A stretch of 64,000 nt of DNA from assembly GCA_964016885.1 (NCBI GenBank), contig OZ024740.1, forward strand, positions 381,734,001-381,798,000, read 5' to 3'. The notes beneath the pieces are model-generated. The model saw only the letters and a program-made list of their open reading frames with translations, was not told the DNA's origin and searched no databases. How positions within the stretch are numbered: position 1 is the stretch's first letter; the number at the start of each line of letters is the position of its first letter. Made by a program: the position numbers and the translations under genes. The DNA is from Eledone cirrhosa. Its lineage: Eukaryota. Of the stretch, positions 1,333 to 60,002 are shown piece by piece.

Positions 1333-1543
1333 TAGATTTGAACAGAGTAAAACATAAAAACATAAAAAATGAATTACAGCTTTCTTCTGTTGAATAATAT
1401 ATATATATATATATATAAACGGAAAAAATGAAACGAAATTTCATTTCTCACTCTTAGTACGGCTGTTACTTAAATATAAGTATGTATACATACAAACATA
1501 TATGTATACAGACGTACAGTAGTATGTATATATATACATACAT

Positions 1544-1587
<44 letters not shown>

Positions 1588-1726
1588 GTATGGATTTACC
1601 GAACATTTATTATGATGCTCGGTGTGTTTGTAAACAAACATCCCGTACTAAGAGTGAGAAATGAAATTTCGTTTCATTTTTTCCGTTTATCGTTTTCGGT
1701 GCGCCCGGCCGATTAACTTACTCGAT

Positions 1727-1734
1727 ATGCAAAT
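1727..1734 (+). promoter_or_regulatory. Octamer ATGCAAAT (candidate snRNA-type distal element)
   Basis: Perfect octamer about 88 bp upstream of the HHR core. Also present at 36674 and in every 469-bp unit (e.g. 33807). Confidence 0.4.
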
Positions 1735-1809
1735 TAGGCTGCTCAGCCGTTAATATGCATAAGGAAAATATATATTTTCAGACGTTCAATCATCTGGCAG
1801 GAAGGTATA

Positions 1810-1850
1810 CGGTGCTGACGATAGCTAATAAGCTTGAAACTAGTACATCG
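1810..1850 (+). ncRNA. Minimal type I hammerhead ribozyme
   Basis: cggtg-CTGACGA-t-agct-aata-agct-t-GAAA-ctag-TA-catcg. Palindromic stem III ACTAGT, predicted cleavage after GUA. Confidence 0.85.
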
Positions 1851-2131
1851 TTCCTTTGTCAGTGTTGAACAAAAGAGCAACGATGGATGCTAAACACTGT
1901 ACGGTTTAATTCGGGATGTTTGTTTACACACACACCGAGCATTATAATAAATGTTCGGTAAATCCATACGTACATATATATATGTGTGCATGTATGTATA
2001 TATACATATACATACTACTGTACGTATGTATACATATATGTATGTACGTATACATACTTATATTTAAGTAACAGCCGTACTAAGAGTGAGAAATGAAATT
2101 TCGTTTCATTTTTTCATATATGTATGTACGT

Positions 2132-2195
<64 letters not shown>

Positions 2196-2373
2196 TGTGT
2201 GTTTGTGTGTGAGAGTGTGTTTGCGTGAGTGTGTGTGCAAGAAATAAGCGGGAAAAAGCAAAGCACATAATAGAGTACAATGAAGATATATATTAATTAA
2301 ACGCTTGATATAGTAGGAAATCAGCTTTAATCTTTCGGACGGTAGTTCTTCATCAGAAGTTTGGATGAGAAAT

Positions 2374-2560
2374 AATTGTTTCTACTTTTGGCACAAGGCC
2401 AGCAATTAACCAATGCATTACTGGTACTTTATTTTATCGACCCCATAAGGATGAAAGGTAACGTTAACCTCGGCGGGATTTGAACTCAGAATGGCAAGGG
2501 CCATAACTCTATGCGTCGAAGCATGAATCCGACACTCTACCGATACTGCCAATCCACCGT
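2374..2560 (-). mobile_element. tRNA-derived SINE (octopus-type)
   Basis: Repeated many times in the window. B-box-like gagttcaaatcc on the minus strand. TSD gtttggatgagaaataat at about 2359 and 2559. Confidence 0.9.
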
Positions 2561-3882: not shown

Positions 3883-4734
3883 TAACTTGTATTATATAAT
3901 GTATAATAAATAACTTTGAAATAAGGTAGAAAGATGGGTATATTTTTAAAGAAATATATATGTATATATATATATATATATGTGCCTTTGAGAAAAGGAT
4001 TTTAAAGGGCAGTGGATTGGCAGTATTGGTAGAGGGTCGGACGCCATCTTTCGAGCATAGTTACGTCCCTTTACGGTCTGAGTTCAAATCCTGCCGAGGT
4101 TAACTTTGCCTTTCATCCTTACGAGGTCGATAAAATAAAGTGCCAGTAATACACTGGGTAATTGCTGGCCTTGTGCCAAAAGTAGAAACAATTATATATT
4201 AATATTATACGTTATATATATATATACATAATTGTTTCTACTTTTGGCACAAGGCCAGCAATTATATCAGTACATTACTGGTACTTTATTGTAATATAAA
4301 TATATATATGTATATATATATATATATCACTTAAGCTCTGTAAGAGCATTGAGTGCTCAAACGGCCTATCGCTTACGGACGCTTTACGCATCCAACACCA
4401 ATTATATATATATATATATGTATATATATATGTATGTATGTTGTCCTGGGTATGACATTAAGCTACATCCAGTGGCAAGGCTGTTGTGATAATTGTGCTG
4501 TGTAATAATTGTTTCTACGTTAGGCACAATGATAATTGAGAAGTATCTAGGAAGAAAAGGTACAGATTAGGGGTTAGAAATTAAAAGAAAAAGAAAAAGA
4601 AAAAAAGAAAAGGAAAAAAGAAAGAAAGGGAAGTGATACATAGGAGTGATATAGAATGAGTAACTTGTATTATATAATGTATAATAAATAACTTTGAAAT
4701 AAGGTAGAAAGATGGGTATATTTTTAAAGAAATA

Positions 4735-10567: not shown

Positions 10568-11473
10568 CAGGTTGTTTTTTCATATATGAGTGAAGTTTGG
10601 TTGGTTGATGCAGTCACATGAATAAGCACATCACCTTTCGCGACAGTTTGTTTGAGGCATTTTGTTGTCGAAGGCATTTTCTTTTATAAATATAATTTGA
10701 TTGGTTATAAATTAAATTATGGTTGCCACGTGAACAAATTCATTAAATTTCGCGCCCGTATTTGGGTATTTATTTTGAGGCCTTTTAGAGAATTTTATGA
10801 CAAACAAAAGATAATGGTCAAGAGAAATGGAATGGGGGGAATTGTTCTGGTTCAGTGAATATGACAGGTTGTTTTTTTCATATATGAGTGAAGTTTGGTT
10901 GGTTGTTGCAGTCACATGAATAAGCACATCAGCTTTCGCGCCAGTTTGTTTGAGGCATTTTGTTGTCGAAGGCATTTTCTTTTATAAATATAATTTGATT
11001 GGTTATAAATGAAATTATAGTTGTCACGTGAACAAATTCATTAAATTTCGCGCCCGTATTTGGGTATTTATTTTGAGGCCTTTTAGAGAATTTTATGACA
11101 AACAAAAGATAATGGTCAAGAGAAATGGGATGGGGGGAATTGTTCTGGTTCAGTGAATATGACAGGTTGTTTTTTCATATATGAGTGAAGTTTGGTTGGT
11201 TGATGCAGTCACGTGAATAAGCACATCAGCTTTCACGTCAGATTGTTTGAATTTCTTTTTACTTAAAAAGAAGTGACTGACGAAGGCTTATTTTTAATAA
11301 ATGTAATTTGATTGGTTATAAATGAAATTATGACTGTCACGCGAACAAGTTCATTAAAATTCGCGCCCGTATTTGGGAATTTATTTTGTAGCTTTTTAGA
11401 GAATTTTATGACAAACAAAAGATAATGGTCAAGAGAAATGGGATGGGAGAATTGTTCTGGTTCAGTGAATATG
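10568..11473. repeat. Tandem repeat, about 298 bp x 3
   Basis: Unit start caggttgtttttt at about 10568, 10865 and 11163. The third copy is more diverged. Confidence 0.9.
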
Positions 11474-14400
11474 GCTGGTTCGCTGGGATGTTAGAATTCA
11501 GACTTTCTATTGAAATAAAGAAAGTAGAGATATGTAGGTTTATTTGTGTGCTTGTGTGTGTGTGTGTGTGTGTATAGGAAGATGATTCTATTAGTAGAAA
11601 TGGGGGAGGGAGTTGTGTGCGTGTGTATATGGGTGTTATGTGTGTGTGTGTGGGGGGGGGTATTATGTGTGTGTGTATGGGTATTATGTGTGTGCGGGAG
11701 TATGGTTAGCATATTAAGATGAAGAGAATATATGTATTTTGTGTGTGTGTGTGTGTGTGTGTAGGAAAATGATTCTGTTAGTAGAAATATTTTTGAATGA
11801 ACATATTTTCCTTATTTATTCGTATTTGTTCTGTTGTATTGTCAGCGCAAAAGTATGTTAATGTTTATTTAGTTCGGGTTTTTATTTTCTAAAGTAGAAG
11901 GTGTTATGTGTGTGTGTATGAGTCTGTTTGGATGGTTAGCATGTTATGGTCTTGACATAATGTATATTAAACCATATTTAATGCTGGTCTATATTTTTGA
12001 ATAAACATATTTTCCTTATTTATTCGTATTTGTTCTGTTGTATTGTCAGCGCAAAGGTAAAATGGGAAGACTTGGAATTTGGGTGTCTTATTACTTGCGC
12101 ATATGTCTAGATGTGCACTTAGTGGTATATGTCTCGTGGTTGAAATTATATATATCAGAATATATATTAATATAAACAAACAGCGAAACCGATAAGAACA
12201 GAAAACATACACAGAAACGCCCATGAATACATATGTATGCATGTATGTGTGTGTGTATGTGTGTGTTTGTATATGCGTGTGAGGTGGTGAGCATGTGTGA
12301 TTCCAAGTATATGACCGACTGTGTGCTTGTATAAGAACGTGTATGTTCAGTGTAATGGTAAAGATAAATACGAGCTTGTCTGGTATACCGTATATTCCAT
12401 TGTTGTTGGCCCTAAAATTACATTATGGATAGAGTCATTTACCGAGAACTTTATCCTATTAAAATGACCTTTCTCTTATGTCAATAGTTGTAATTTAGAA
12501 AACGAATGTACTTTTAGAATAACTATAGCATTAAAATAATATGTTTCTTGCAGTTCATTGAAGAGATTAAAATGATAGCACTAGAATTTTAATATGGAGT
12601 ATATCAATTTATTGGTAGATTGCTATTTCCTTTTGTTACCATCTTTGGTCATGTTAAATAACATATCCGTACCACTAATTAGAATTCATCAATTTAATTC
12701 ATCAATTACTATAACATGCTCTATCAATCTCGACGTTCGCTTTCCGATTATCACATTTTCACATCCTATTATATCATCGATTTCAATTAAGTAAACGTAT
12801 TTGAAATCTTTATCGTAGTCTTTAAATGTACTATAATTTGGTAGCGAGCTTCATTGTAAAGTAATATGATTTTTCCTTTGTCAATGATTTTCTGCCGGCA
12901 CGAATGGCGCAATATCCTAGATTTTCCGTTTCCCATATAGACAGGAATTTCATTTTACCTCATCATATCATAGTTTCAAACATTCATTAATTTGAGGATT
13001 ATCTTGTAGCAAACGGTGCAATGAGATGTTATGTTCTTTGTGATTGAATATGTTCCACTGTTGCTTCATGCAGGATCACTAAAACCATGACATGGGGTCG
13101 CTCCCCATATTTCCCCATTTCATTATATTTCCTGGCCTCACATTTGTTTAATAAATGATGTATTCACTACCATCTAAAAAATTCAGCATCGCAAAGGCAT
13201 TGTACATTGCTGCGTCAGTCTAGAGGGAACAATTATTGAAGTATTTTGTTTCTTCGCTGTAGTGTACTCTACTCAACTTCACATTTGATTGAATGTGTTT
13301 GCCATACATCATCTCATACTGGGTACGTCACAGAATGTAATAGTTTATTGGTTGTTTCTTACCCGCAAACTCCTCTGTGACTACTCTGTATTTGCTCGAG
13401 TTTTAGTGTAATTAAGACTACATTATGGACTTCCATATTTAATGCCTCAGGGTATGCTTTGAGAATTACCTGATCGCTACTTCTAGTAAATCGAGAAAAA
13501 GTAAAGTCTCACTCATGAAAAGCAATTCCTTGTATTTATTTCGTTGCTTTTGTGATGTCTCCCGAATCCACTTATGATATTAAAACCATAGAAAAAGGCA
13601 CGATCAACATGAGTTCAATTTACTCGCATGTGAATGTGAGTTTGTATGTGAGAACTATATACCTGTAGGTTTCGAATATCTGACATTCTATTTTCAGATA
13701 TAGCGGACGATACAACGTAGGACTACATTAATTACACCTAGTAATGTTATCTCCTTCACATTGAATTCAAATACTATTGGCGTGAAATCTTGTAAATTGG
13801 TGGAGTATATATATATAATAGATCAGATTAAATATCTCTTGATATATCTTGTCCCAAATATAAACATTTACGGTTGGTAGCATCGTTGACGTTTATGTCA
13901 TATATCTTGCAGCTATGCACCAATGTTCATATATTTGTCCTATTTAACATAATCTCTCTCTGCACTTAGGCACCCATAAACCTAAGTCCGAAGTTTAATT
14001 CAATAATCGTTTTCAGTGTGCTAAATTATATATTAATAAGTAGGATCATTTGATTCTTTTAACCTGTTGACCTATTGAATCGCTGAATCGCAGTATTAGC
14101 ACTAAATTCTTCTTCTTCATGTACAGTATCAAATAGGTGCATAATCACTCCATTCCCTATATAATTTCGTGCTGTATTCATAGTTATAAGAATACTCTAA
14201 GCCATTGATAGCACTGCCTAGAGCACTAATTATTAAGTACCCATAATATATACTTAAATCTGTGGCTTGTGGAAACCTTATAGCACTTTTCAATGTATTT
14301 AACAACACGCTACTGGCTCAGCCCTCTTTGTTATATCAATGACTAAAATCGCAAAGGACGCAGAAACATGTTTTATTTCATTCAAGAGATATAAAATAAT

Positions 14401-15377: not shown

Positions 15378-15505
15378 AAAGTTCTATTTAAAGTTGTTGG
15401 GATACAACAAGTAAATATTTTTATAACTGATATAAAGCACTCGACAAGTTTTTGGAGTAGATATACGATATTAATAAATGGAAACTATATTTATAAAACC
15501 ATATT

Positions 15506-15570
15506 TATTTCATTATACATATTTCAGGGATACCACATTAAATTATGGTATGCCTTCATCAGACAAAATA
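15506..15570 (-). ncRNA. Type I hammerhead ribozyme (mirror copy)
   Basis: Reverse complement of 15711-15775. Confidence 0.8.
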
Positions 15571-15710
15571 CAATATATAACAGTTTTACAAATAGCTTTG
15601 ACGTACCCTTTTAAAATACAACCATTACTTTTGGAGGAGACAGCCTCCAAAAGTAATGGTTGTATTTTAAAAAGGTACGTCAAAGCTATTTGTAAAACTG
15701 TTATATATTG

Positions 15711-15775
15711 TATTTTGTCTGATGAAGGCATACCATAATTTAATGTGGTATCCCTGAAATATGTATAATGAAATA
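15711..15775 (+). ncRNA. Type I hammerhead ribozyme
   Basis: tattttgt-CTGATGA-aggcataccat...gtggtatccct-GAAA-tatgta-TA-atgaaata. Confidence 0.8.
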
Positions 15776-15814
15776 AATATGGTTTTATAAATATAGTTTC
15801 CATTTATTAATATC

Positions 15815-15865
<51 letters not shown>

Positions 15866-15977
15866 TAAGAGGAATTCCAACTTTGTCTGATTTACTCGTT
15901 TTATTTACAATCCTTTAAAACGTATAATGGTATTATAATGAAATAGTATGATAGAATATTAAATTCTAAGTGTTAAT

Positions 15978-16016
15978 TGAACAAGTACTTTCATGCTTTC
16001 GCAATCTTCAGGTTCA
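15978..16016 (-). ncRNA. Minimal hammerhead ribozyme (mirror copy)
   Basis: Reverse complement of 16067-16105. Confidence 0.8.
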
Positions 16017-16066
16017 TAATATGTGGTGACAGTCAAGTTTGCAAACTTGACTGTCACCACATATTA

Positions 16067-16105
16067 TGAACCTGAAGATTGCGAAAGCATGAAAGTACTT
16101 GTTCA
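16067..16105 (+). ncRNA. Minimal type I hammerhead ribozyme
   Basis: tgaac-CTGAAGA-t-tgc-gaaa-gca-t-GAAA-gtac-TT-gttca. Palindromic stem III AGTACT. Confidence 0.8.
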
Positions 16106-16256
16106 ATTAACACTTAGAATTTAATATTCTATCATACTATTTCATTATAATACCATTATACGTTTTAAAGGATTGTAAATAAAACGAGTAAATCAGACAA
16201 AGTTGGAATTCTTCTTATTAATATAATCTTCTATACACAATCATACACACCCGTGT

Positions 16257-21152: not shown

Positions 21153-24100
21153 TTTTCTTTTTATTTGCCACCAGGGCATCAAAAAGTGGGACAAGTACAA
21201 TGGGGGGGAGTTTACATAACAAGGCATCCTCAATAAGGAGGAGGCAATAACAAAATATAAAAATAAAATAAAATATAACAAGATAAAATTTATAACAAAA
21301 TCCTCAATAGAGAGGAGACGCCTTGTGGGGTCACACACACCCCCGAAGAAAAGTGTGCAACCCTTCTCCTCAGGAGCACAGGGAAGGGGTGCTCCCTTGG
21401 TCTTTCAACTTCCTCACCTATAGTCTGATGTAGAGTGAAGGTCCATTCACACGGGCCATTCTCGCCACTTTCACCCATCTTTCATAAAAGCGGCTGGGGT
21501 GCAGCACCTCTATCCCCATCCTGATCCTTCTTCTGAAATGATATCGGAAGAAACGGACAGTTGTTGGCCAGAGAGAAAGGTGTCTGACCTCAGTCCTTTC
21601 AGACGCGTCCACCATACAACCTCTTTCGCCATGACTATTACGCACAGAAACACCGCCTCTCCTTCGTTTTTGAAGAGGGGAGGCGGCTTGATCGTTACAA
21701 TAGACACGGTGGTCAACCGGATCGGTCCCACCCTTGACAGCAGTTGTTCGACATAGCCCCACAGATCGGCAATGCCCGAGCAGTGTACCAATGCGTGTGC
21801 AACGGTTTCCTCGTCGCACACGCATCTGGGACAGATCTTTTTCGAAGGGTCCCTACCCGGGCGCCCGGGTCTGTAGAGCCTTTCTCGAACGGGCAGAGCC
21901 CTTCTGTAGCACTGTCAGGCCAGGGACCTCTGGAAGTTAGCCATGGGTCCCGGGCTGATGTTCTACCGAACAGGTTGTCCAGTTCGTCTTCCTGCGTGCC
22001 TAGGGCTTCTCCGAGGGCGTCGTCGCACCTGCTAACCACCAGCCCTCTATAGAATGACAAGGTGGATTCTCCACTGACAGCCGGGTCCGCCTGCCAGAGA
22101 GCCGTGAGCGCCTGGGCACACTCGGTGTGCCAGGCGCCCAGTTTTCTCGGATTTTGCTTGACCCAGGATTGCAGCCCGGTGAGTGAGACGAGTCTGGGAA
22201 AGGCTCGCCTCACAAACGGGGCCCACACCGGTTGACCGGAGAGGAATACCTGGAGGTGCCGTTGCCTTAATGCGTGTTTACGTATCATTAGCCACGGCAT
22301 CCCAAGCCCTCCTTTCGAAGGGTGTTGACAGCAGATGGAACTCCTCACCATAGGAGCCCGCTTATTCCAAAGGAATTGGAAGAGTGCGCGCTCCATTTTG
22401 GCGAGCGTTTCCCTTGGGCAAGGCACAACGGTCAGGCGGTAGTAGATGACGGACGCTATATAAGTGTTCGCCACCTCCGCCCGACCTTTCAGGGACAGTT
22501 TGCACTCGGCCCACTTCTGGGTCAGTGCAAACACCCTATTCGTTACCTCACCCTAGTTCTTCTCCACCTGCAGGTCTGGGCCGAACCAGACCCCGAGCAA
22601 CTTCACCGGGCCCTCCGTCCAGCGCCCGACGACGCCATCGGAGGGCATCGATCTGCCTATCCACGTGCCGAGTTGCAGACCCATCAAATTGTCCCGGTTC
22701 AGCTTAGCCCCTGTAAACCTTTCGTTCGCCTCCAGTAAGGTGCCGATCGCCCCGATTTCCGAGGCCGTCGACACCATTACTGTTACGTCCTCGGCGTAGG
22801 CCGACACCGCTTTCCGCAATCCCGGTTCCAACGGGATGCCCTGCAACAACTCCAACTTCCGCAGCAGTGGCTCTAGAGTCATTACATACTGAAGGGAGGA
22901 GAGAGGGCACCCCTGTCGGATGGACCGCGTGATTTCGAACGGCTCCGAGAGGTAGCCGTTCACCTTGACCCTAGAGCAGATGCGGCTGCTGTGCATGGCA
23001 TTGATCTAGCCCCTGAAAACGGGTCCGAAGCCTGCCGCCGCTAGCACCGCATCCAGGTAACCATGGTCGACCCTATCGAACGCCTTAGATTGATCCAAGT
23101 TGATCAGGGCCCCACCAAAACCGGGTTCGTTCCCAACCCTCTCTATGATGTATCGCATGAGGTGGAGGTTGTCGTGGATGGACCTGGACGGGATTACACA
23201 TGTCTGCGCACCTCCCACCAGGTTGCCCACGACAAGCGCCAACCTCTTTGCTAGCACCTTGGCCAAAATCTGTAACTCTGTATTTAGCAGAATTATGGGC
23301 CTGAAATTATTTATATCGTCCCTCCTCACTAGCGTGACTACGCCCTTGGTCACAGCACAGGGAATTCTCCCGTTCTGTTGCCAGTTGCAGTAGACCGCCT
23401 CGAGGAGATCGGGGAACAAGTCCGGCATAGCTAGATATAGTTCGTATGGAAGACCATCGAGACCCGGGGATTTGCGTTTGCCGCATTGGCTCAGCACGTC
23501 CTCTATCTCAGCGGCTGAAATCGGCTCCTCGCAGGACTTCGCCTCTCTGTCCGAGAGACGCGGCAGGCCGTCGAGGTATGGACCGAAGTCCACATCCCCA
23601 ACCGGCTCCCCGCCCCTTCCGAACAATCCGGCAAAGTGCTTTTGAAAAGCCTCGCACATATGCTTAGGTTCAAGGATCACCCGTCCATCCTGGTCTCGCA
23701 AAGATCGGATAGTGGATCTGCTCCCTCTTTTGGCTTCTGTCACGCGGGCCCAGCTAACAGCTTTGGTCCCCTCGTTCCCCAGAGCACGTATTTTGCTTTG
23801 GACGATGCAGCCTTCGTGTTTCGCTTCGAAGAACTGGCCCAGGGCCGTTCTCGACGCTAGCACTCTGGCCACGTCGCCGCTTCTAATTACCTCTTCTACA
23901 CTATCTACCAACTCCCTTTCCCTCCTATTTCTATTTGAGGCTAACTCCTTACTAAATTCTATAGAGACTACTCTAATCTCTCTTTTGAGAGATCCCCACC
24001 ACCTGCTGTTGACGATGGCGCCCGCCAACCGCTCCTTAACTAAAGTGCTAATCCAGTCCCTGTAAGCCTTACTTGCCGGTAAGGACAAGTTGAGCTTCCA

Positions 24101-24183
24101 GTAACCGGGTCCCTGTCTATGAGTTCTGTCAAGGTTGACCATGCAGGTCACTAACTTGTGGTCTGAATAGTCAACCATGCGCG
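21153..24183 (-). mobile_element. 5'-truncated Tx1/L1-clade LINE
   Basis: ORF2 pieces: endonuclease end SDHKLV, GPGYWKLN, KSPGLDGL, FRPIILLN, LDQSKAFDRVDH, RQGCPLS, YAEDV (from YADD), KGGLG, and a C-terminal Cys/His knuckle EETVAHALVHC. 3' UTR present, (GATA)n at both ends. Confidence 0.93.
21418..24180 (-). pseudogene. Disrupted LINE ORF2 (endonuclease C-terminus, reverse transcriptase, zf-RVT)
   Basis: Split over ORFs 23006-24256, 22553-22996, 21713-22534 and 21510-21821 by stops and frameshifts. Confidence 0.9.
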
Positions 24184-24266
24184 TAGATAGATAGATAGGC
24201 AGACAGACAGATAGATAGATAAATAGATAGATAGATATGTTTCTTTTATTTGCCACCAGTGCATGT

Positions 24267-24346
<80 letters not shown>

Positions 24347-24450
24347 ATAGACAAATAAATAGATGAATAAATGGATGGATGGATATATAGATAAATAGAT
24401 AGATATATATCTTTCTTTATTTGCCTAGAGAGATATATAGACTGACAGAT
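24184..24450. repeat. (GATA)n microsatellite with two tiny Tx1 3' stubs (about 24240-24265 and 24411-24425)
   Basis: GATA runs interrupted by ttcttttatttgccaccag and tttctttatttgcc. Confidence 0.85.
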
Positions 24451-24452
24451 AT

Positions 24453-25372
24453 CTTTCTTTATTTGCTACATGGGCGTACAAAAATGGGGCATTACAAGAC
24501 ATGACGGCGGAGCTTTTACATCAAATCATATAACTTTAACATTAATAAATAGCAATAAACTATATATATTAAAATACCAATTGAAATCCACAATAGGGGG
24601 GAACGTTACTGCAAGGTTGTTTTACACCCCATGAGTAGAACAACCCTCAACACCAGGAACACGTTTTGTAGATGTTCCCGTCTTCCCTCTGTTTATCCTC
24701 CTCAACCTACAGGTTTATATACACTCGGGCCATTTTCGCCACAGTCACCCACCTTTCAGCGAATTTACTGGGAATTTACTGGAAATTTACTAGCACCTCT
24801 CTCTCCACTCTCACCTTCCTTCTGAAGTGGTACTTAAAGAGGGGATAAGTTGTTGTCCGGAGAGAAAAGTGTTTGCCTTCAGTCCTTTTAACCTCGTCTA
24901 TCATATTACCTCTTTCGCCATAGCCACAAGACAGAGGAAAACCGCCTCTCCTTCATTCTTAAATGAAGGCGGCGGGTTGATCCTCACCATGGACTCGGCT
25001 GACAACTGGATGCGTCCCACACGTGACATTAACTGTTCGACATAATTCCACAGGTCGCTCACACCTGGGCACTGAACGTGCAGAACGGTTTCGATCTCCT
25101 GCTCGCATTTTGGACAGGTCCTTTTAGCAGGATCTCTGCCAGGGCGTCCGTGCCTGTAGATTTTGTCTCGAACTGGTAGAGCTCCTCTATAGCACTGCCA
25201 GGCCAGAGACCTCTGGAAGTTATCTATAGGCCCTGGTCGGAAAGTCCTGCTGAACAGACTGATCAGTTCGTCCTCCTCGATGCCTACAGTTTCCCTGAGA
25301 ACGTCGTCGTACTTATCCTCCACTAATCACCTATAGAATGTCGAAGTGAAGTCTCCGCTGATTGTCGTTTCT
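24453..25372 (-). mobile_element. Second Tx1-like LINE 3' fragment (diverged subfamily)
   Basis: ORF 24901-25323 FQRSLAWQCYRGALPVRDK...CPKCEQEIETVLH parallels 21510-21950. 3' UTR present. Confidence 0.88.
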
Positions 25373-31850: not shown

Positions 31851-31910
31851 AATATATATATATATACAATGATATTAAATAAATGGAAACTATATTTATA
31901 AAACCATATT

Positions 31911-31975
31911 TATTTTATTATATATATTTCAAGGGCAACCAAGACAACATTGGTACGCTTTCATCAAATAAAATA
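31911..31975 (-). ncRNA. Degenerate hammerhead ribozyme, relative of the 15711 family
   Basis: Minus strand tattttat-TTGATGA-aagcgtaccaa...ttggttgccctt-GAAA-tatata-TA-ataaaata. Flank aaatggaaactatatttataaaaccatattt is shared with 15476. Confidence 0.7.
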
Positions 31976-32433
31976 CAAATTTTGTTTTATAAATAGACAT
32001 ACCCGTGAAACTTATCGGTTGTAAATTCACTGGATAGTGAAATTCATTGTTGAGTGCTCTAAATCAGTTATAAACATTTATATTTGTCGGACATCCAACA
32101 AATTAAATACCACTTCTACTTATATATATATATATATATATATAAAAACAAATAACGAAACGAAATTAAATTTCGTTTCGCTTCTAACTCACTTTTGTAT
32201 GACTGACGCTTAAACAATTAAGTTAAAGTGTACATCTACATATGTATACGGAAGTATTAGTATGCATATAAATACACACATGTATACATATGTACATGTA
32301 CTCAGCTTTTCACTAGACACTTTACAGTGAGTGTCAGCTAGTCTGTATGTAACCACACAGGCGGACCGGGTTTTAGAGTCATACGAGTTTTCAAGGAAAC
32401 ACATTTCCTCTATTCACCAGAGGGCCAGACAAG

Positions 32434-32478
32434 AATATTGAACTAGTTTCGATGTTATTACATCTCATCAGCAATATT
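32434..32478 (-). ncRNA. Minimal type I hammerhead ribozyme (GUU site variant)
   Basis: Reverse complement of 33900-33944 with one substitution at N17. Confidence 0.88.
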
Positions 32479-32902
32479 TACCCATCTTCCGGCTTCTCTG
32501 GAGAATTGTAAAAGCACATATCGTTATATGCTTTTTCTATGAAAATTAGTAGTGGGTAGACCAATTTGCATAGAACGTGAGTCATTGTACGCACCGGTTC
32601 AGCGGAAACGATAAAAACAAATAACGAAACGAAATTAAATTTCGTTTCGCTTCTAACTCACTTTTGTATGACTGACGCTTAAACAATTAAGTTAAAGTGT
32701 ACATCTACATATGTATACGGAAGTATTAGTATGCATATAAATACACACATGTATACATATGTACATGTACTCAGCTTTTCACTAGACACTTTACAGTGAG
32801 TGTCAGCTAGTCTGTATGTAACCACACAGGCGGACCGGGTTTTAGAGTCATACGAGTTTTCAAGGAAACACATTTCCTCTATTCTCCAGAGGGCCAGACA
32901 GG

Positions 32903-32947
32903 AATATTGGACTAGTTTCGATGTTATTACATCTCATCAGCAATATT
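32903..32947 (-). ncRNA. Minimal type I hammerhead ribozyme
   Basis: Reverse complement of 33900-33944. Confidence 0.92.
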
Positions 32948-33371
32948 TACCCATCTTCCGGCTTCTCTGGAGAATTGTAAAAGCACATATCGTTATATGC
33001 TTTTTCTATGAAAATTAGTAGTGGGTAGACCAATTTGCATAGAACGTGAGTCATTGTACGCACCGGTTCAGCGGAAACGATAAAAACAAATAACGAAACG
33101 AAATTAAATTTCGTTTCGCTTCTAACTCACTTTTGTAAGACTGACGCTTAAACAATTAAGTTAAAGTGTACATCTACATATGTATACGGAAGTATTAGTA
33201 TGCATATAAATACACACATGTATACATATGTACATGTACTCAGCTTTTCACTAGACACTTTACAGTGAGTGTCAGCTAGTCTGTATGTAACCACACAGGC
33301 GGACCGGGTTTTAGAGTCATACGAGTTTTCAAGGAAACACATTTCCTCTATTCTCCAGAGGGCCAGACAGG

Positions 33372-33416
33372 AATATTGGACTAGTTTCGATGTTATTACA
33401 TCTCATCAGCAATATT
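33372..33416 (-). ncRNA. Minimal type I hammerhead ribozyme
   Basis: Reverse complement of 33900-33944. Confidence 0.92.
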
Positions 33417-33899
33417 TACCCATCTTCCGGCTTCTCTGGAGAATTGTAAAAGCACATATCGTTATATGCTTTTTCTATGAAAATTAGTAGTGGGTAGACC
33501 AATTTGCATAGAACGTGAGTCATTGTACGCACCGGTTCACCGGTCCGCCTGTGTGGTTACATACAGACTAGCTGACACTCACTGTAAAGTGTCTAGTGAA
33601 AAGCTGAGTACATGTACATATGTATACATGTGTGTATTTATATGCATACTAATACTTCCGTATACATATGTAGATGTGCACTTTAACTTAATTGTTTAAG
33701 CGTCAGTCATACAAAAGTGAGTTAGAAGCGAAACGAAATTTAATTTCGTTTCGTTATTTGTTTTTATCGTTTCCGCTGAACCGGTGCGTACAATGACCCA
33801 CGTTCTATGCAAATTGGTCTACCCACTACTAATTTTCATAGAAAAAGCATATAACGATATGTGCTTTTACAATTCTCCAGAGAAGCCGGAAGATGGGTA

Positions 33900-33944
33900 A
33901 ATATTGCTGATGAGATGTAATAACATCGAAACTAGTCCAATATT
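33900..33944 (+). ncRNA. Minimal type I hammerhead ribozyme
   Basis: aatattg-CTGATGA-gatgt-aata-acatc-GAAA-ctag-TC-caatatt. 7-bp stem I, 5-bp stem II, palindromic ACTAGT stem III, GUC site at 33935-33937. Confidence 0.93.
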
Positions 33945-34368
33945 CCTGTCTGGCCCTCTGGAGAATAGAGGAAATGTGTTTCCTTGAAAACTCGTATGAC
34001 TCTAAAACCCGGTCCGCCTGTGTGGTTACATACAGACTAGCTGACACTCACTGTAAAGTGTCTAGTGAAAAGCTGAGTACATGTACATATGTATACATGT
34101 GTGTATTTATATGCATACTAATACTTCCGTATACATATGTAGATGTACACTTTAACTTAATTGTTTAAGTGTCAGTCATACAAAAGTGAGTTAGAAGCGA
34201 AACGAAATTTAATTTCGTTTCGTTATTTGTTTTTATCGTTTCCGCTGAACCGGTGCGTACAATGACTCACGTTCTATGCAAATTGGTCTACCCACTACTA
34301 ATTTTCATAGAAAAAGCATATAACGATATGTGCTTTTACAATTCTCCAGAGAAGCCGGAAGATGGGTA

Positions 34369-34413
34369 AATATTGCTGATGAGATGTAATAACATCGAAA
34401 CTAGTCCAATATT
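34369..34413 (+). ncRNA. Minimal type I hammerhead ribozyme
   Basis: Identical copy 469 bp downstream of 33900. Confidence 0.93.
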
Positions 34414-34625
34414 CCTGTCTGGCCCTCTGGAGAATAGAGGAAATGTGTTTCCTTGAAAACTCGTATGACTCTAAAACCCGGTCCGCCTGTGTGGTTACAT
34501 ACAGACTAGCTGACACTCACTGTAAAGTGTCTAGTGAAAAGCTGAGTACATATGTATACATGTGTGTATTTATATGCATACTAATACTTCCGTATACATA
34601 TGTAGATGTACACTTTAACTTAATT

Positions 34626-34692
<67 letters not shown>

Positions 34693-34695
<3 letters not shown>

Positions 34696-35949
34696 GTGGT
34701 TACACAACAGTTAGTTCACCATACCGAGAACAATTGTTTCACCTTAGCGGATCCTCGGCTCGTAATGGACGTGGTTATACGGAACAGGAAGGACGAACAG
34801 GAAGTACGAACGCGCATGCGCAGAAACCGCCACTTCACACAGGCAATACTAAAAAGCGTGCGAGAGGTGTAAGGGAGATAACTGCGAAAAGTCCAAAAAG
34901 TTTATAGTTGATAAGAAAATTAGGACATTGTTGTGATTCAATCCGGAGATTTGTAGTTATGTAAGAGGTGTTTCAAGACGTGTGGACAACGTGTGAAGAA
35001 TTCATTTCTCGTGTTTAGGCAATCATTATTGCATAATCTCTTTAGAATATTTATTCGTTCATCAATACATAGTCCACACAACGGATTTCCCCTTACTTAT
35101 GGCTTGGACTTAGTGATGGCTTTTCATTGAATGGAGTAGTCTATACTTGAGTCTTTCAGGGACCATACGTGTCTCGCGAGTTTCGTGGATGAACGTCTTT
35201 CCGGGTATCTAAAGGTCGACTGGTGGTTCAGGAAGCGTTCCATAAATCGGCCCTCCACCATACCCACATAGGATTTGACCTCCTATTGTTGATTTGTTGA
35301 TTTGGTCGATTGGAAGTGACCACAGCTTCATAAATTCCAACCGACTAAATCAACCACAGGAGGTCTAATCCTATGTGTCAAATCCTATGGCGGAGGGCCG
35401 ATTTAAGAAACGCTTTAAGGAACCACCAGTCGATTTTAGGTACCCGGACAGACGTTCATCCAAGAAACTCGTGAGCCACGTATGGCCCCTCAAGGACTAA
35501 AGTATAGACTACTCCATTCAATGGAAAGCCATCACTAACTCCAAGACATACGCAACGGTAAATCCGTCGTATGAACTATGTATTGATGAACGAATAAATA
35601 TTCTAAAAAGATTATGCAATAGTGATTGCCTAAACACGAAAAATGAATTCTTCACACGTTGCTTACACGTCTCGAAAGACCTCTTACATAACTACAAATC
35701 TCCGGATTGAATCACAACAACATCCTAATTTTCTTATCAACTAGAAACTTTTCGGACTTTCGCAGTTATCTCTCTTACACCTTTCGCACGCTTTTTAGTA
35801 TTGCCCGTGTGAAGTGACGGTTTCTGCGCATGCGCGTTCGTACGGTTGTCCTTCCTGTTCCGTATAATCATGTCCATTATGAGGTGAGGATCCGCTAAGG
35901 TGAAACAATTGTTCTCGGTATAGTGAACAAACTGTTGTGTAACCACTTC
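34693..35949. mobile_element. Foldback/MITE-like non-autonomous DNA element
   Basis: About 600-bp imperfect inverted arms, TA|gaagtggttacacaacag...ctgttgtgtaaccacttc|TA. No credible ORF. Confidence 0.85.
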
Positions 35950-36012
35950 TACCTAACTCGTTCCATGGACTGAGTGCTCTACCACTACGGATATTACCTT
36001 CCAGTGTTCTAC

Positions 36013-37063
<1,051 letters not shown>

Positions 37064-38982: not shown

Positions 38983-39290
38983 ATACGTTTGCCTTACCCT
39001 TATTGGATATTCTTTCAAACAAAAGTGCTTAGGTAAGTTGTGGTGAATCTGGTAAGTAAATTGTTAACGGCATATTTTCCTTAGAGGTTACTACATATTG
39101 TCCTTAGAGGTTACTACACAATACCTCGGTATACTTGTTTCAGCTGTCTGCGCTCAGAGTTCAAATCCCACTGAAATTATCCCCATTTTTCATCCTTTCG
39201 GTGAATCAAGAATTTAGTAACCATAAGAAATGAAATAAGCATAGATCTTACCTTTCAGATCCTACACTCTTACCTAGCAGCAACCAAAAT

Positions 39291-39716
39291 GTGAATAATT
39301 CTAGCTTTCACTCTAAACCTCTTACCCCTCTTATCCCCTCACCTGTGTCAATTTCACATACAATATCTACTAATGTTAACTGTAATTGTAATTGCAGAAA
39401 ACCGGACAATTGCCCTTTGAATAAGAATTTCCTTACTAATAACATTGTGCATAGATCCACGGTTAAGACCCCTAATGGTACTAAAACTTACATTGATGCT
39501 ACTATTAACTCTTTTAAGACTGCTTTAATTTTCACACATTCGTTCAGGGATAGTAGCTTAAAATCTCCTACTTCATTAGCCAGACTAGTAAATTCACTTA
39601 AACTCTCCAATACTGAATACTGTTTAGTTTGGGATATTCTAGCCAGATCATCTCCATATAAAGGACATACGGATCATTGCGATCTTTGTTTATCACAGGC
39701 TTACTTTATAACCTAA
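39291..39716 (+). pseudogene. Penelope-like element GIY-YIG endonuclease remnant
   Basis: CNCRKPDNCPL..NIVHRSTV..KTYIDAT.NSFKT..HSF..TSLA..WDIL..PY..CDLCL matches the Cys-rich PLE endonuclease pattern. Catalytic motifs are decayed. Confidence 0.8.
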
Positions 39717-52828: not shown

Positions 52829-53731
<903 letters not shown>

Positions 53732-54305: not shown

Positions 54306-56740
54306 CGGGTAAAATTCCCGACATCCGTGGACGTGTTCTCTCCAGCGATCTCTGTCCCTTATTATCGCTACCATGTCCTGCGTCTCCAAGTGACCAGTGT
54401 CTGTCCTTAGAGCATCATCTTATGTTAACGTCGCTCTTCCTCTTCCAGTGTGTCCATGCAGGGGCTCCCACAGGATCACTGAGTGCAGTGTCAATTCTGG
54501 ATGTCGGTGACCATGCCCAGCTAACCTCAGTCTCCTCAGTGTCACTTTTGAGCTGACGTTTGCGAGGCCCCCATACAGCTCAGAGTTCTTCATCCTCAAT
54601 GTATACTGATTAAGGTTCAAAGCCATCCTCAGCATTCTTGTGTAGCACCCATCCACCACCTGAATGAGTTTCTTGGCCAGGGTTCAAGTCTCAGACCCTA
54701 ACAGCAGCACATACTCCACTACAGCAACGAAGAGACGGATATTCAGGTCGTTACGAAGGTCCGACTGCCACACCGATCTGAAGCTGTGGCACGCCGCCCA
54801 GGCTTTGCTCTTCCTCTCAACCACATCATCTTCCATATTCCCAATCTTAGCTCCCAAATACAGGAAGTCCTCAACCAATTCAAGCGGCTTCACGCCTACA
54901 TTAGTAATCTTCTCTGGCTTCTTAATATTCTCTACCAGATATTTCGTCTTAATCTCATTCATTCTCAGCCCCTCACTCATCGACACAGTCTCCACTACCT
55001 GCATCAAATCATCTGCCTCCTTCACTGTGTTGTCACCAAAACTATGTTGGAGTCAAATTCAGCATCTGATATCTTTTTCGCCTTACTCTGCTGCTCTGAG
55101 CCAGTGCTACAGTAAAGACAGAGTCCTGGTGTTTCTCCAGCGCAAGGCAGATACAATAGTCCACTGCGATGATAAAAAGATAGGGAGCCAATGTATCTCC
55201 CTGGAGCACTCCAGCCAGTATCTCAAAGAACTCTGTCATCCCATAAGGTGTAATGACTTGGGCTTTGGTGTTTGTATAGAGCAGTGATATCAGGTCCACT
55301 ATCTTCTTGGGGATTCGATAAGCCTGTAATATCTTCATCAGGCAGTGACGGTCCTCAGAATCAAAGGCCTTCCTAAAGTCAATGAAAACCATGATCGCAG
55401 GAAGGCACTTTGCTCTAGCTCCATCTAATATCCTCATCAGCATCAAGATGTGACTGGTGGTTGATCATCCCTCTCTGAAGCCGTTCTGGTTGTCCATGAG
55501 CTTCTTCTTCATCTCGGGCTGGATCCTGTTAAGAATCATCCTGTTGAGGGTCTTTGCCACAAGTGACGTCAGTGAGATAACCCTGTAGTTGTTGGTGTTA
55601 AAGAGAACCCCTTCTTTGGCACTGGTACGATGCTACTGATCCTCCACTGATTCGGGGCAACTCCTTTCTCCAGTGCCTGGGTACAGAACCCCAGGATGAT
55701 ATCATCAAGATCACACCTCTTCATCACCTCTGATGCCACTCCATCTTCTCTATCAGGCTTGTCCTCCTTGAACTTCTTGGGTCTCTGAAGCTCCTCTCTA
55801 GTGAAGGGCGCTGTTTCAATATCCAGTTCCTTAAACATCCGCCTGATCTCGCAAATGTTCTGGGCTGTGGGGGGGGGGGGAGCTCTTATAGTAGGGTCCT
55901 AAAATGGTCCAGCCATTTACCCATCCCATCCTAGGGCCCTGTTCCCTGGATCTGACTCAAACACCTTCTCTTCCTCCCTGTGATCTCGTTGATGATCATC
56001 CAGCTCTCCTTACATCCAGACCTGCCAACCACACTTCTGATCTTCTCTACCAGTGCCTCATCTCTGGATCTCTGGCCTCAGTGTAAGCGGTACAGAGTTC
56101 TTCCCTCATCATCTCCACATTGTGCTTCCTCTCCTCCGTAGGATCAACATAGAATTGGTTCTTGGCAGCTTTCAGGTATTCTCTGGCTGCACACTCTTTT
56201 GGGTCTGAAGAGCTGACGTGCTTCCTCTTGTTCTTTTTCCTCGACACCTGGGTATCACTGGCTTCCGCCACTGCATTGGTAAAGTACCCGTACCTCCTCG
56301 TCACACTCTCCTCAGTGCCTCCAATCTCTCTCTCTTCTGTCTCTCAACACAGAGCGCTGAACCTGTTCCTCACTTCTACTGTGAACCTCTCCTGTAGCTT
56401 ATCATCTTCGTTGAAAGCTCCCCAGTCATAGATTTCTCTCCGGGACTGAGCCTTACTCTTTCTTAAGCTCACCCGCACTTCACTCATAACAAGCCGGTGG
56501 TCACTTCCCAGTGTACTGAAATAGTTTTATTGTTCTGTATTCAGAACACTATTCCGCCACTTTTTCCTCACCAGAATGGAATTAATTTGGGACTTGAACA
56601 CGTGCATATCTGAGATGTAGGCCACATCTTCCCCGGATTCTTCCTAAACCTTAGGTTGGTTGCTATTAAGTTGGCCTCCAGCAGGGTCTCTCTCAGTAGT
56701 CTTCCATTTCGGTTGGTGTTGTTATGGAAGTACCAGCAAT
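54304..56740 (-). mobile_element. 5'-truncated, frameshifted RTE-like LINE
   Basis: GSDHRL (endonuclease end), IVPVPKKG, FIDFRKAFDS, GVLQGDTLAPYLF, VEDFLYLGA, LLLGSET, DGCYTRMLR, RRLRLAGH. The 3' end abuts (TA)n. Confidence 0.92.
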
Positions 56741-58354: not shown

Positions 58355-58458
58355 GAATAATTTGCTTCTAGTGTAATTATTATTTTTAGCACGATTGGAT
58401 TTTCTATACATGTCTTTCAGTGGAGTATGATATTTAGCCTTTTGTATTGCTTATTATA

Positions 58459-59046
58459 ATAATTGTTTCTACTTTTGGTACAAGGCCAGCAATTACCCAG
58501 TACATTACTGGTACTTTATTTTATCGACACCCGTAAGGATGAAAGGCAAAGTTAACCTCGGTGGGATTTGAACTCAGACCGTAAAAGGACGTAACTATGC
58601 TAGAAAGCATGGCATCCAACCCTCTACCGATACTGCCAATTCACCGTCCTCTTGTTTATTATAATAATTGTTTCTACTTTTGGCACAAGGCCATCAATTA
58701 ACCAGTGCATTACTGGTACTTTATTCTATCGACCCCGGAAAGGATGAAAGGCAAAGTTAACCTCGGCGAGATTTGAAGTCAGAATGCCAAGGGCCGTAAC
58801 TCAATGCGTCAAAGCATGGCGTCCGACCCTCTACCAATACTGCCAATCCACCGCTAATAATTGTTTCTACTCTTAGCACAAGGCCAGCAATTACCCAGTG
58901 GATTACTGGTACTTTATTCTATCGACCCCGTAAGGATGAAAGGCAAAGTTAACCTCGGCGGGATTTGAACTCAGAATGGCAAGGGCCGTAACTCAATGCG
59001 TCAAAGCATGGCGTCCGACCCTCTACCGATACTGCCAATGCACCGC
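58459..59046 (-). mobile_element. Three consecutive SINE copies (58459-58648, 58664-58854, 58857-59046)
   Basis: Head-to-tail family matches separated by taataat-type sequence. Confidence 0.92.
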
Positions 59047-59165
59047 TAATAATAAACTCTATTTTGAACTGTGTTTAACTTCTCCAACTATCTTTATAAA
59101 TTTGTGTATGTTTCTGTAAAAAAACGATAATTATTTAAACATTGCTTTTTCTTCGGAATTAACTA

Positions 59166-59634: not shown

Positions 59635-59741
<107 letters not shown>

Positions 59742-59890
59742 TGTTATACTTTGGGAGGGTCATGTTGCCAATAAGAAACACACGCACCAGTTGCTTTCAC
59801 TTCAATTTATTATAATAAATTCATAAATTTAGGAATTTATAAATTTCCGGTTGGTTGGTTGGTTCCACAACCAGATGATTATTTATATAT

Positions 59891-59935
59891 TGTCAAAGTT
59901 CTTTCGTCACACATTCTGTGACCTCTTCAGTGCCT
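59891..59935 (-). ncRNA. Decayed hammerhead ribozyme
   Basis: Minus strand aggca-CTGAAGA-ggtcacagaatgtgtgac-GAAA-gaac-TT-tgaca. Weak stem I. Confidence 0.5.
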
Positions 59936-60002
59936 GGGGATTCTTTTCTTTGTTTTTTGTGCCTCTCCTTTGTTCTGTCCTACGCCATCTTGTTTTTTGT
60001 TA

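What the first reader, a model, noticed from the sequence alone, without database searches (positions are those of the whole stretch)
1415..2115. Second, homologous retrozyme-like family (432-442 bp) present twice in the window
Seen: 1415-2115 and 36122-36999 are paralogs, each slightly more than one unit long and starting at different points of the unit (circular permutation). Each has a 5' inverted arm and adjoins (TA)n. They share an ordered set of motifs with the 469-bp family: aaatttcgtttc, tttatcgttt, ATGCAAATT, an HHR with AAUA loop II and ACUAGU stem III, and a TA/TG-rich block. The rest has diverged. Inference: these are two old lineages of one non-autonomous ribozyme replicon, with selection on those motifs.
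Basis: partly seen in the sequence, partly recalled or inferred. Interest (0 to 1): 0.75.

Follow-up and report, generated by a model that had tools for sequence, protein, structure and literature searches.

The report
Penelope-pasted hammerhead retrozyme family
A 430-base non-coding repeat with a predicted self-cutting RNA motif is present in over 10,000 copies in this animal genome, and its mirror-image arms end at two fixed sites, so it was likely pasted in by a Penelope-type jumping-gene enzyme, probably copying a small RNA circle.

Summary
The two stretches are real paralogs (92% identical) of a ~430-bp non-coding unit with a type I hammerhead (HHR). Its 32-nt core occurs 10,393 times genome-wide. 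It is homologous to the 469-bp family along the whole unit (63%, z=28; still significant without HHR and TA block), and HHR stems covary. The 3' ends are fixed: 92 of 105 arm ends fall at two sites 56 nt apart, beside (TA)n. Only the inner 5' truncation points vary. All 23 two-armed insertions with both ends at these sites carry one end of each kind. The 469-bp family ends at the homologous sites. This is the two-start-site 'tail' footprint of Penelope-like elements (PLE). No copy in 94 loci was a PLE terminal repeat. Verdict: a non-autonomous animal retrozyme mobilised by a PLE enzyme. A circular monomer template is likely: arms read through the cut site, and sister-family arrays share private A>G changes across all units. 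For this family that step is unproven; no RNA data and no partner PLE were found. The scan has reported the same system on other DNA of this genome.

The parts
1415..1652 (-). Copy 1, inverted arm: unit q263 to q48, ending at the long 3' site (with 56-nt tail) next to (TA)n
   Evidence: (97.2% to family consensus)
1643..2115 (+). Copy 1, main arm: 1.09 units, q1 to q41 of the next unit; one 432-bp unit = 1643-2074; about 10-bp overlap with the inverted arm at the junction
2115..2142 (+). 28-nt piece q389-418 that gives copy 1 a short-type outer end before (TA)n; template jump or a second tiny insertion (not resolved)
1809..1851 (+). Type I hammerhead: stem I 1809-1814/1846-1851, core CUGACGA 1815-1821, stem II with U.U base and AAUA loop, GAAA 1836-1839, palindromic stem III ACUAGU, predicted cut after GUA 1845
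   Evidence: sequence
1727..1735 (+). ATGCAAATT motif conserved in families A and B; role unknown
   Evidence: 25,787 hits of the shared 20-nt pattern, control 0
1655..1690 (+). Predicted hairpin and U-rich stretch just before the long 3' site (q48 = 1690); part of the tail
2040..2066 (+). Predicted hairpin before the short 3' site (q422, about 2064)
1955..2066 (+). TA/TG-rich self-complementary block of the unit
1395..1416 (.). (TA)n target, left of copy 1
2140..2192 (.). (TA)n target, right of copy 1
36121..36386 (-). Copy 2, inverted arm: q222 to q48, long 3' end next to (TA)54
   Evidence: 91.8% to consensus; 98% to its own main arm
36383..37005 (+). Copy 2, main arm: about 1.4 units of 442 bp, from q236 to the short 3' region, fading into (TA)n
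36756..36798 (+). Hammerhead of copy 2, with G>A at 36790 that breaks stem III; likely inactive
36016..36123 (.). (TA)n target, left of copy 2
32142..34630 (.). Sister family A (469-bp unit): two-armed array of 3.0 and 2.3 units, 5 hammerheads, outer ends at the long (32142) and short (34630) sites

Best explanation
This is a non-coding, hammerhead-bearing repeat (an animal non-LTR retrozyme) whose copies end at two fixed sites inside (TA)n, and it is likely inserted by a Penelope-like retrotransposon enzyme that probably copies a circular one-unit RNA from both ends of a DNA break. Step 1 (inferred): arrays with two or more units are transcribed. Step 2 (inferred from structure and literature): neighbouring hammerheads pair through the palindromic stem III, cut out unit-length RNA, and a host ligase closes it. 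Step 3 (footprint shown, enzyme inferred): a PLE endonuclease/RT cuts both strands of a (TA)n tract and primes one cDNA at unit position ~422 and the other at ~48, 56 nt further on. Step 4 (shown): the two cDNAs stop at variable points and join head to head, giving two arms of which only one has the tail. Step 5 (shown for family A): some arrays later expand locally as satellites. Single-hammerhead copies such as the two in this window would be dead ends or weak sources.
For: Fixed ends: 49 arm ends at q401-427 and 43 at q35-49 of 105, against about 10 expected if uniform; 14 of 17 in 13 further loci. Of 32 head-to-head pairs, 23 are long+short, none long+long or short+short, 9 have one end elsewhere. 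(TA)4 lies on both sides in 20 of those 23, background 13%. Family A ends at the homologous sites, q461-467 and q66, long+short in 12 of 20 loci and never two of a kind. ORF-bearing PLEs of this genome show the same two-end pattern, 58-60 nt apart (Neptune-like) and about 190 nt apart (Hydra-like). PMC11167929 shows in vitro that a PLE protein cuts and extends both strands and starts at two internal RNA sites that bound the tail. The HHR is under structural constraint: 93.3% of cells paired, covariation 0.419 vs 0.168 shuffled and at most 0.131 slid; stem I pair 3 is U.G 66, G.U 37, A-U 27 of 139. For a circle: no pile-up of 5' ends at the cut (3 of 105); 11 of 28 arms not used for selection run past it. 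In the sister family A2, all 17 units on both arms of L290 share three A>G changes absent from 11 other loci. In A, changes shared by all copies of an insertion include 12 A>G and 0 T>C, from 2 loci.
Against: No RNA evidence of expression, cleavage or circles. No autonomous PLE sharing sequence with A or B was found. The editing/monomer signal is absent in family B itself: shared A>G 4 vs T>C 2, and only 5 private variants shared by all copies against 144 singletons. In A, 10 of the 12 A>G come from one locus. PMC11167929 found that HHR cleavage is not needed and uncut RNA is the main template in vitro, so read-through of the cut site fits uncut linear multimers equally well. B's stem II base is U.U (C.A in B2), not the usual G-C, so cleavage may be weak; Rfam scores it only 18.1 bits against a cut-off of 52. 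PMC 10.64898/2026.07.22.740005 found cleavage in only 1 of 9 tested retrozyme dimers. Copy 1 itself is atypical: its main arm stops at q41 and reaches a short end only through a 28-nt extra piece. L288 shows a 7-unit higher-order repeat and L177 periodic variants, so long arrays are not all single RT products.
Confidence: 0.62

Rival explanations
1. Same PLE-driven insertion, but the template is an uncut linear multimer transcribed from tandem arrays; the hammerhead serves another purpose (RNA end formation, stability) and circles are by-products or absent.
For: PMC11167929: HHR mutants insert normally in vitro. Arms cross the cut site. Family B shows no monomer-bottleneck or editing signal. 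Most B arms are under 1.6 units.
Against: All 17 units on both arms of L290, and all covered units of L292, share A>G changes rare or absent elsewhere. A multimer edited independently per unit would not give that, though a source array already fixed for them would. Compensatory HHR changes imply that cleavage matters for propagation.
Confidence: 0.27
2. The unit is simply the pseudo-LTR of an autonomous PLE not yet seen, and the copies are 5'-truncated PLE insertions.
For: The anatomy is that of PLE insertions (PMC8557442). PLE ORF fragments lie within the fetched stretch of 15 of 94 B loci. Only 94 loci with about 1.5-kb flanks and five protein queries were examined.
Against: Upstream of a unit lies another unit, an inverted arm, (TA)n or flanking DNA, not an ORF. 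The nearby PLEs inspected end in their own 3' end and TA tract; in L039 and L059 B sits inside a rearranged PLE. The PLE family upstream in L018 continues into B in 0 of 19 other copies. The HHR has the canonical metazoan shape (helix I 6 bp, helix II 4 bp), not the minimal PLE shape described in PMC4209133.
Confidence: 0.07
3. Satellite or DNA-level foldback repeat, or assembly artefact, with no RNA step.
For: The window is rich in palindromes; some A arrays show satellite-type higher-order structure.
Against: Arms of one insertion differ by 2-2.5% and are asymmetric. Ends are fixed at two sites with a strict one-of-each rule. Independent short-read contigs show the same loose end into (TA)n at 1690. 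The HHR covaries.
Confidence: 0.04

Closest known systems
Metazoan non-LTR retrozymes (PMC7229834, parts 2-4 of 6 read, supplement unreadable here; preprint 10.64898/2026.07.22.740005, parts 1-3 of 5 read, supplements closed)
   Same: ORF-less unit of 150-450 bp with one type I HHR, tandem and solo copies, thousands per genome, co-occurring with PLEs. U.U at the base of helix II and 2-bp helix III as in axolotl HHR_Amex2; palindromic loop III as in newt/axolotl motifs.
   Different: In the parts read, neither paper describes inverted arms, a tail, two fixed 3' ends or (TA)n targeting for retrozymes. PMC7229834 proposes PLE RT on circles as a hypothesis; the preprint proposes origin from pLTRs with local amplification. 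Expression and circles are shown there and untested here.
EN+ Penelope-like elements (PMC8557442, passages, section 11 and one supplement search; PMC11167929, main text read)
   Same: Partial tandems, inverted 5'-truncated copy, tail at one end only, (TA)n targets, HHR in the repeat, two internal RT start sites.
   Different: No RT or GIY-YIG ORF; tail 56 nt (about 70 in A) instead of 30-40; canonical-shaped rather than minimal HHR (PMC4209133, passages read); no sequence match to the PLE families inspected here.
Non-autonomous Chlamys elements such as MRC1 (PMC8557442, one passage read)
   Same: Non-autonomous PLE passengers with multicopy head-to-tail insertions.
   Different: Those generally share 3' sequence with an autonomous family and lack canonical HHRs; here there is a conserved HHR and no partner was found.

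Membership tests
Metazoan non-LTR retrozyme | Type I hammerhead in each unit | tested here: met
   Core, three stems and covariation; Rfam HH9 only 18.1 bits, below cut-off; copy 2 carries a stem III mutation
Metazoan non-LTR retrozyme | Short unit (150-450 bp) in tandem copies | tested here: met
   430-bp consensus; 48 of 105 arms over one unit, up to 4.6 units
Metazoan non-LTR retrozyme | No protein-coding capacity, no LTR pair | tested here: met
   No ORF of 100 aa or more overlaps copy 1 or lies within copy 2; no PLE ORF fused in 94 loci (and inspections)
Metazoan non-LTR retrozyme | Highly self-paired predicted circular RNA with the HHR stems able to form | tested here: met
   Circular MFE -145 kcal/mol, z=-9.2 vs 60 shuffles; q1-300 without TA block z=-4.5; stems I and II present in the fold
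Metazoan non-LTR retrozyme | Expressed as linear and circular RNA; self-cleaves | not testable with these tools
   No RNA run available; contigs cannot show it
Metazoan non-LTR retrozyme | Target-site duplication longer than 4 bp when present | not tested
   Targets are (TA)n, where a duplication cannot be delimited
EN+ Penelope-like element (autonomous) | ORF with RT and GIY-YIG endonuclease | tested here: not met
PLE-mobilised passenger | Two fixed 3' ends with a tail at one end only | tested here: met
   92 of 105 ends; 23 long+short, 0 of the same kind, of 32 pairs
PLE-mobilised passenger | Inverted 5'-truncated arm and (TA)n target | tested here: met
   32 head-to-head pairs in 64 loci; TA both sides in 20 of 23
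PLE-mobilised passenger | Sequence shared with an autonomous partner | tested here: inconclusive
   No significant match to the Hydra-like or Neptune-like 3' regions in hand (292 of 1000 shuffles score as high); not all PLE families were sampled
snRNA-type internal promoter (newt satellite 2; recalled) | Octamer plus proximal element like the host's U1/U2/U4 genes | tested here: not met
   No octamer in 400 bp upstream of two U2 genes; the AATTAA..TCAGT..TATA spacing seen by eye upstream of U1/U2/U4 is not reproduced in A or B

The most novel reading that the evidence does not exclude
A dimeric Penelope-type enzyme binds one hammerhead-made RNA circle and reverse-transcribes it from two fixed start sites into both ends of a (TA)n break. 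One ancestral retrozyme has kept those two start sites and its ribozyme fold through divergence to 63% identity, with no sequence left in common with any autonomous partner, so recognition is by RNA structure. The A/B pair would then map the minimal cis-signals for PLE capture of a circular RNA.
Probability: 0.45. Interest if true: 0.75.

Novelty: new member of a known kind. Interest (0 to 1): 0.52.

Why it matters
Which enzyme spreads animal retrozymes, and whether it copies RNA circles, was proposed in 2020 (PMC7229834) and argued by phylogeny in 2026 (10.64898/2026.07.22.740005), but is not shown in the parts read. Here the insertions carry the PLE two-start-site footprint. The strict one-long, one-short rule constrains how PLEs use both DNA ends. 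Because two families 63% identical keep the same two ends, they give a natural comparison for finding the RNA signals and a short template for the existing in vitro PLE assay. As a family it is one more retrozyme, and the scan has seen the same system elsewhere in this genome.

Tried and rejected
Circular permutation of ends: rejected. Cut linear monomer as template: no pile-up of 5' ends at the cut; 2 of 28 unselected arms stop within 10 nt of it. snRNA-type promoter: not supported; the paper search for it listed 2 papers and I did not read a passage on it, so the newt parallel is recalled. RNA-editing scars in family B: not seen. Partner search: Hydra-like and Neptune-like 3' regions, a profile of A/A2/B over 944 kb of masked loci, and two hammerhead patterns excluding A and B gave only further non-coding relatives among the 100 hits listed each. 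Apparent PLE-B fusions (L004, L277, L111) were separate insertions into the TA tract left by a PLE; L018 was not repeated in 19 other copies; L059, a head-to-head junction of a Hydra-type fragment and a B arm, is one ambiguous case. Expression: no RNA holder listed; two runs labelled as other organisms held low-depth pieces, not used as evidence. Rfam over the window gave only low-complexity miRNA hits and sub-threshold HH9 hits on family A. Isolated 52-nt HHR folds are not more stable than shuffles (z -0.6 and -1.2). Pfam did not recognise the relic endonuclease at 39234-39713. Look-ups of earlier findings by sequence and near this place returned nothing.

Full report
Coordinates. q-numbers are positions in the family B unit, with q1 = window 1643. 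The window lies in a 3.0-Gb animal assembly of 1,796 contigs. Earlier scan notes call the host a cephalopod; my own impression of an octopus-like SINE is recalled and untested.

1. Observation. The two stretches align at 88% over 435 columns, 379 of 412 aligned bases. Copy 1 is an inverted arm (1652 to 1415, q263 to q48), a main arm (1643-2115, q1 to q41) and a 28-nt piece (2115-2142, q389-418). Copy 2 is an inverted arm (36386 to 36121, q222 to q48) and a main arm (36383 to about 37005, from q236 to the q408-424 region). Arms of one copy are 97.5-98% identical to each other and 92% to the other copy. Both sit in (TA)n. The hammerhead core pattern occurs 19 times in the window against 2.6 expected.

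2. Copy number and relatives. The 32-nt B hammerhead core has 10,393 exact hits (control 0), the A core 1,478. Two patterns written to exclude A and B gave 5,382 hits, nearly all of the 100 listed being a sister of A (A2), and 1,681 hits, mostly a B subfamily with C.A at the base of stem II (B2). A 480-490-bp form (B3) is 75-80% identical to B and carries some A-like stretches. These are counts of units, not insertions.

3. A/B homology. The consensus units align collinearly over B positions 8-424, score 260 against 47 +/- 7.5 for 500 dinucleotide shuffles. The part before the hammerhead alone gives z=18, the part after it without the TA block z=5.7, both 0 of 500; the reverse-complement control gives z=1.8. 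Identity is 63% over 418 columns.

4. Hammerhead. Stem I is 6 bp, stem II 4 bp over a U.U, loop AAUA, stem III 2 bp in the palindrome ACUAGU, cut triplet GUA. In 139 ungapped B copies (5 gapped left out; part of the sample was selected on the core) stem I pair 3 is U.G 66, G.U 37, A-U 27, other 9. On 20 sequences from four subfamilies (16 distinct) 93.3% of cells pair and 6 of 13 pairs change on both sides; the covariation score is 0.419 against 0.168 shuffled and at most 0.131 slid, but the number of such pairs is not above the shuffles (264 of 500), and these are few independent events. PMC4209133 (passages) describes this shape as the canonical metazoan type that works as a dimer; PMC7229834 reports a U.U-based helix II in an axolotl retrozyme that cleaves weakly as monomer and better as dimer. 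Copy 2 has G>A in stem III. Activity is not shown.

5. Ends. I took the first 70 stretches listed on contig C1 for the exact core, dropped 6 overlapping ones, and mapped arms in 64 loci. Leaving out arms cut by a locus edge, 105 remain: 49 end at q401-427 (mode 422), 43 at q35-49 (mode 48), 13 elsewhere; the two windows cover 10% of the unit. In 13 further loci 14 of 17 arms end there. The 5' ends are spread over the unit. Of 32 head-to-head pairs, 23 are long+short, none are two of a kind, 9 have one end elsewhere. (TA)4 lies within 40 bp on both sides in 20 of the 23, background 1,008 of 7,527 positions. In 20 A loci the ends are q461-467 and q66, the aligned equivalents; 12 loci are long+short (two of them duplicates of each other), none two of a kind. 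So endpoints are not circularly permuted. Copy 1 fits only if its 28-nt piece is counted as the outer end.

6. What makes such ends. PMC8557442 describes partial tandems, an inverted 5'-truncated copy, a 30-40-bp tail at one end and (TA)n targets for PLEs. PMC11167929 shows a purified PLE protein cutting and extending both strands and starting at two internal RNA sites that bound the tail. This genome holds many PLEs (50,172 first-look candidates for one endonuclease query). A family with the Hydra-type CxCx5C linker has two ends about 190 nt apart. A family with a Neptune-like CX4CxxC linker has ends 58-60 nt apart: 13 short, 7 long and 5 other of 25 distinct rows. Clade names rest on these motifs, not on a tree.

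7. Not a plain pLTR. Five PLE proteins hit 15 of 94 B loci. Six of these and L277 were read in sequence, the rest judged by position and 3' ends. In none did a PLE ORF use B as its terminal repeat. The one collinear case without a clear TA tract (L018) was not repeated in 19 other copies of that PLE. A rare autonomous copy among thousands would be missed. No partner was identified.

8. Template. Only 3 of 105 5' ends lie within q195-215, around the cut; of 28 arms lacking the exact core, 11 run past the cut, 2 stop at it, 15 stop short. So the template is a circle or an uncut multimer. Segments within a locus agree at 14 common polymorphic sites in 868 of 1,007 pairs, against 53% between loci. 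For the younger sisters there is a monomer signal: variants shared by all copies of an A insertion include 12 A>G and no T>C (2 loci; 14 and 0 from 4 loci at a looser threshold), while singletons are 7 and 10; all 17 units seen on both arms of L290 share three A>G absent from 11 other loci. That fits one A-to-I edited unit copied many times. For B the test is negative or too weak (4 vs 2). L288 has a 7-unit higher-order repeat, so later local expansion also occurs.

9. Literature and novelty. Searches for retrozyme with octopus or cephalopod, and for retrozyme with tail, inverted and rolling circle listed no paper on this family or on a PLE tail in retrozymes; subscription journals and Repbase are not covered, the PMC7229834 supplement could not be read and the preprint's supplements are closed. 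The family meets the testable retrozyme features, so it is a new member of a known kind. Its value is the insertion footprint. Earlier scan notes on other DNA of this genome reach the same reading; I had stated mine before seeing them, and they are not independent evidence.

10. Verdict. PLE mobilisation about 0.9; circular monomer template about 0.62 overall; interest 0.52.

Noticed in passing
window 39234-39716 (+): Relic of a PLE GIY-YIG endonuclease with the Hydra-type CxCx5C linker; 50,172 first-look candidates genome-wide, some in frames of 500-680 aa.
   Followed up: partly
window 34691-36016: Two-armed element (86.8% between arms) with a ~65-bp extension at the right end, a weak endonuclease-like match (30%) and its own hammerhead-like motif; sits between array A and copy 2 in one nested (TA)n cluster.
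   Followed up: partly
window 15458-15823 and 15858-16225: Two further short hammerhead-bearing palindromes in (TA)n (97% and 99.5% between arms); the first also occurs as fragments at 31859-32144 and in many fetched loci.
   Followed up: partly
window 59741-60000 (-): Terminal repeat of the Neptune-like PLE family with hammerhead core at 59902-59930, ending at that family's short 3' site.
   Followed up: partly
L059:750-1590: Hydra-type PLE 3' fragment joined head to head to a B arm; one ambiguous candidate for a mixed-template insertion.
   Followed up: partly
L288 (G000:C1:95619000-95628900) and L289: Family A array of more than 35 units with a 7-unit higher-order repeat: a retrozyme turning into a satellite.
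   Followed up: partly
L127:1147-1268 and L175:519-667: Degenerate relics of a more distant relative of A/B, with the octamer-like motif and hammerhead core.
   Followed up: no
L078:230-616 and L106:333-719: 310-bp tandem units with a different hammerhead, probably the 310-nt family of earlier scan notes.
   Followed up: no
L178-L244: U1, U2 and U4 genes lie in tandem arrays; their upstream regions share AATTAA near -90, TCAGT near -57 and a TATA-like box near -30, seen by eye.
   Followed up: no
window 2367-2560 and at least 8 other places: A ~190-bp SINE-like repeat, once inverted (4002-4293) and once in tandem (58447-59053).
   Followed up: no
window 21418-25361, 52893-53285, 54684-55898: Broken LINE-type RT fragments and a mariner-like transposase fragment, judged by eye from translations.
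   Followed up: no
window 10568-11480: 298-bp tandem repeat, 3 copies at 91%; no hammerhead core pattern matched in it.
   Followed up: no
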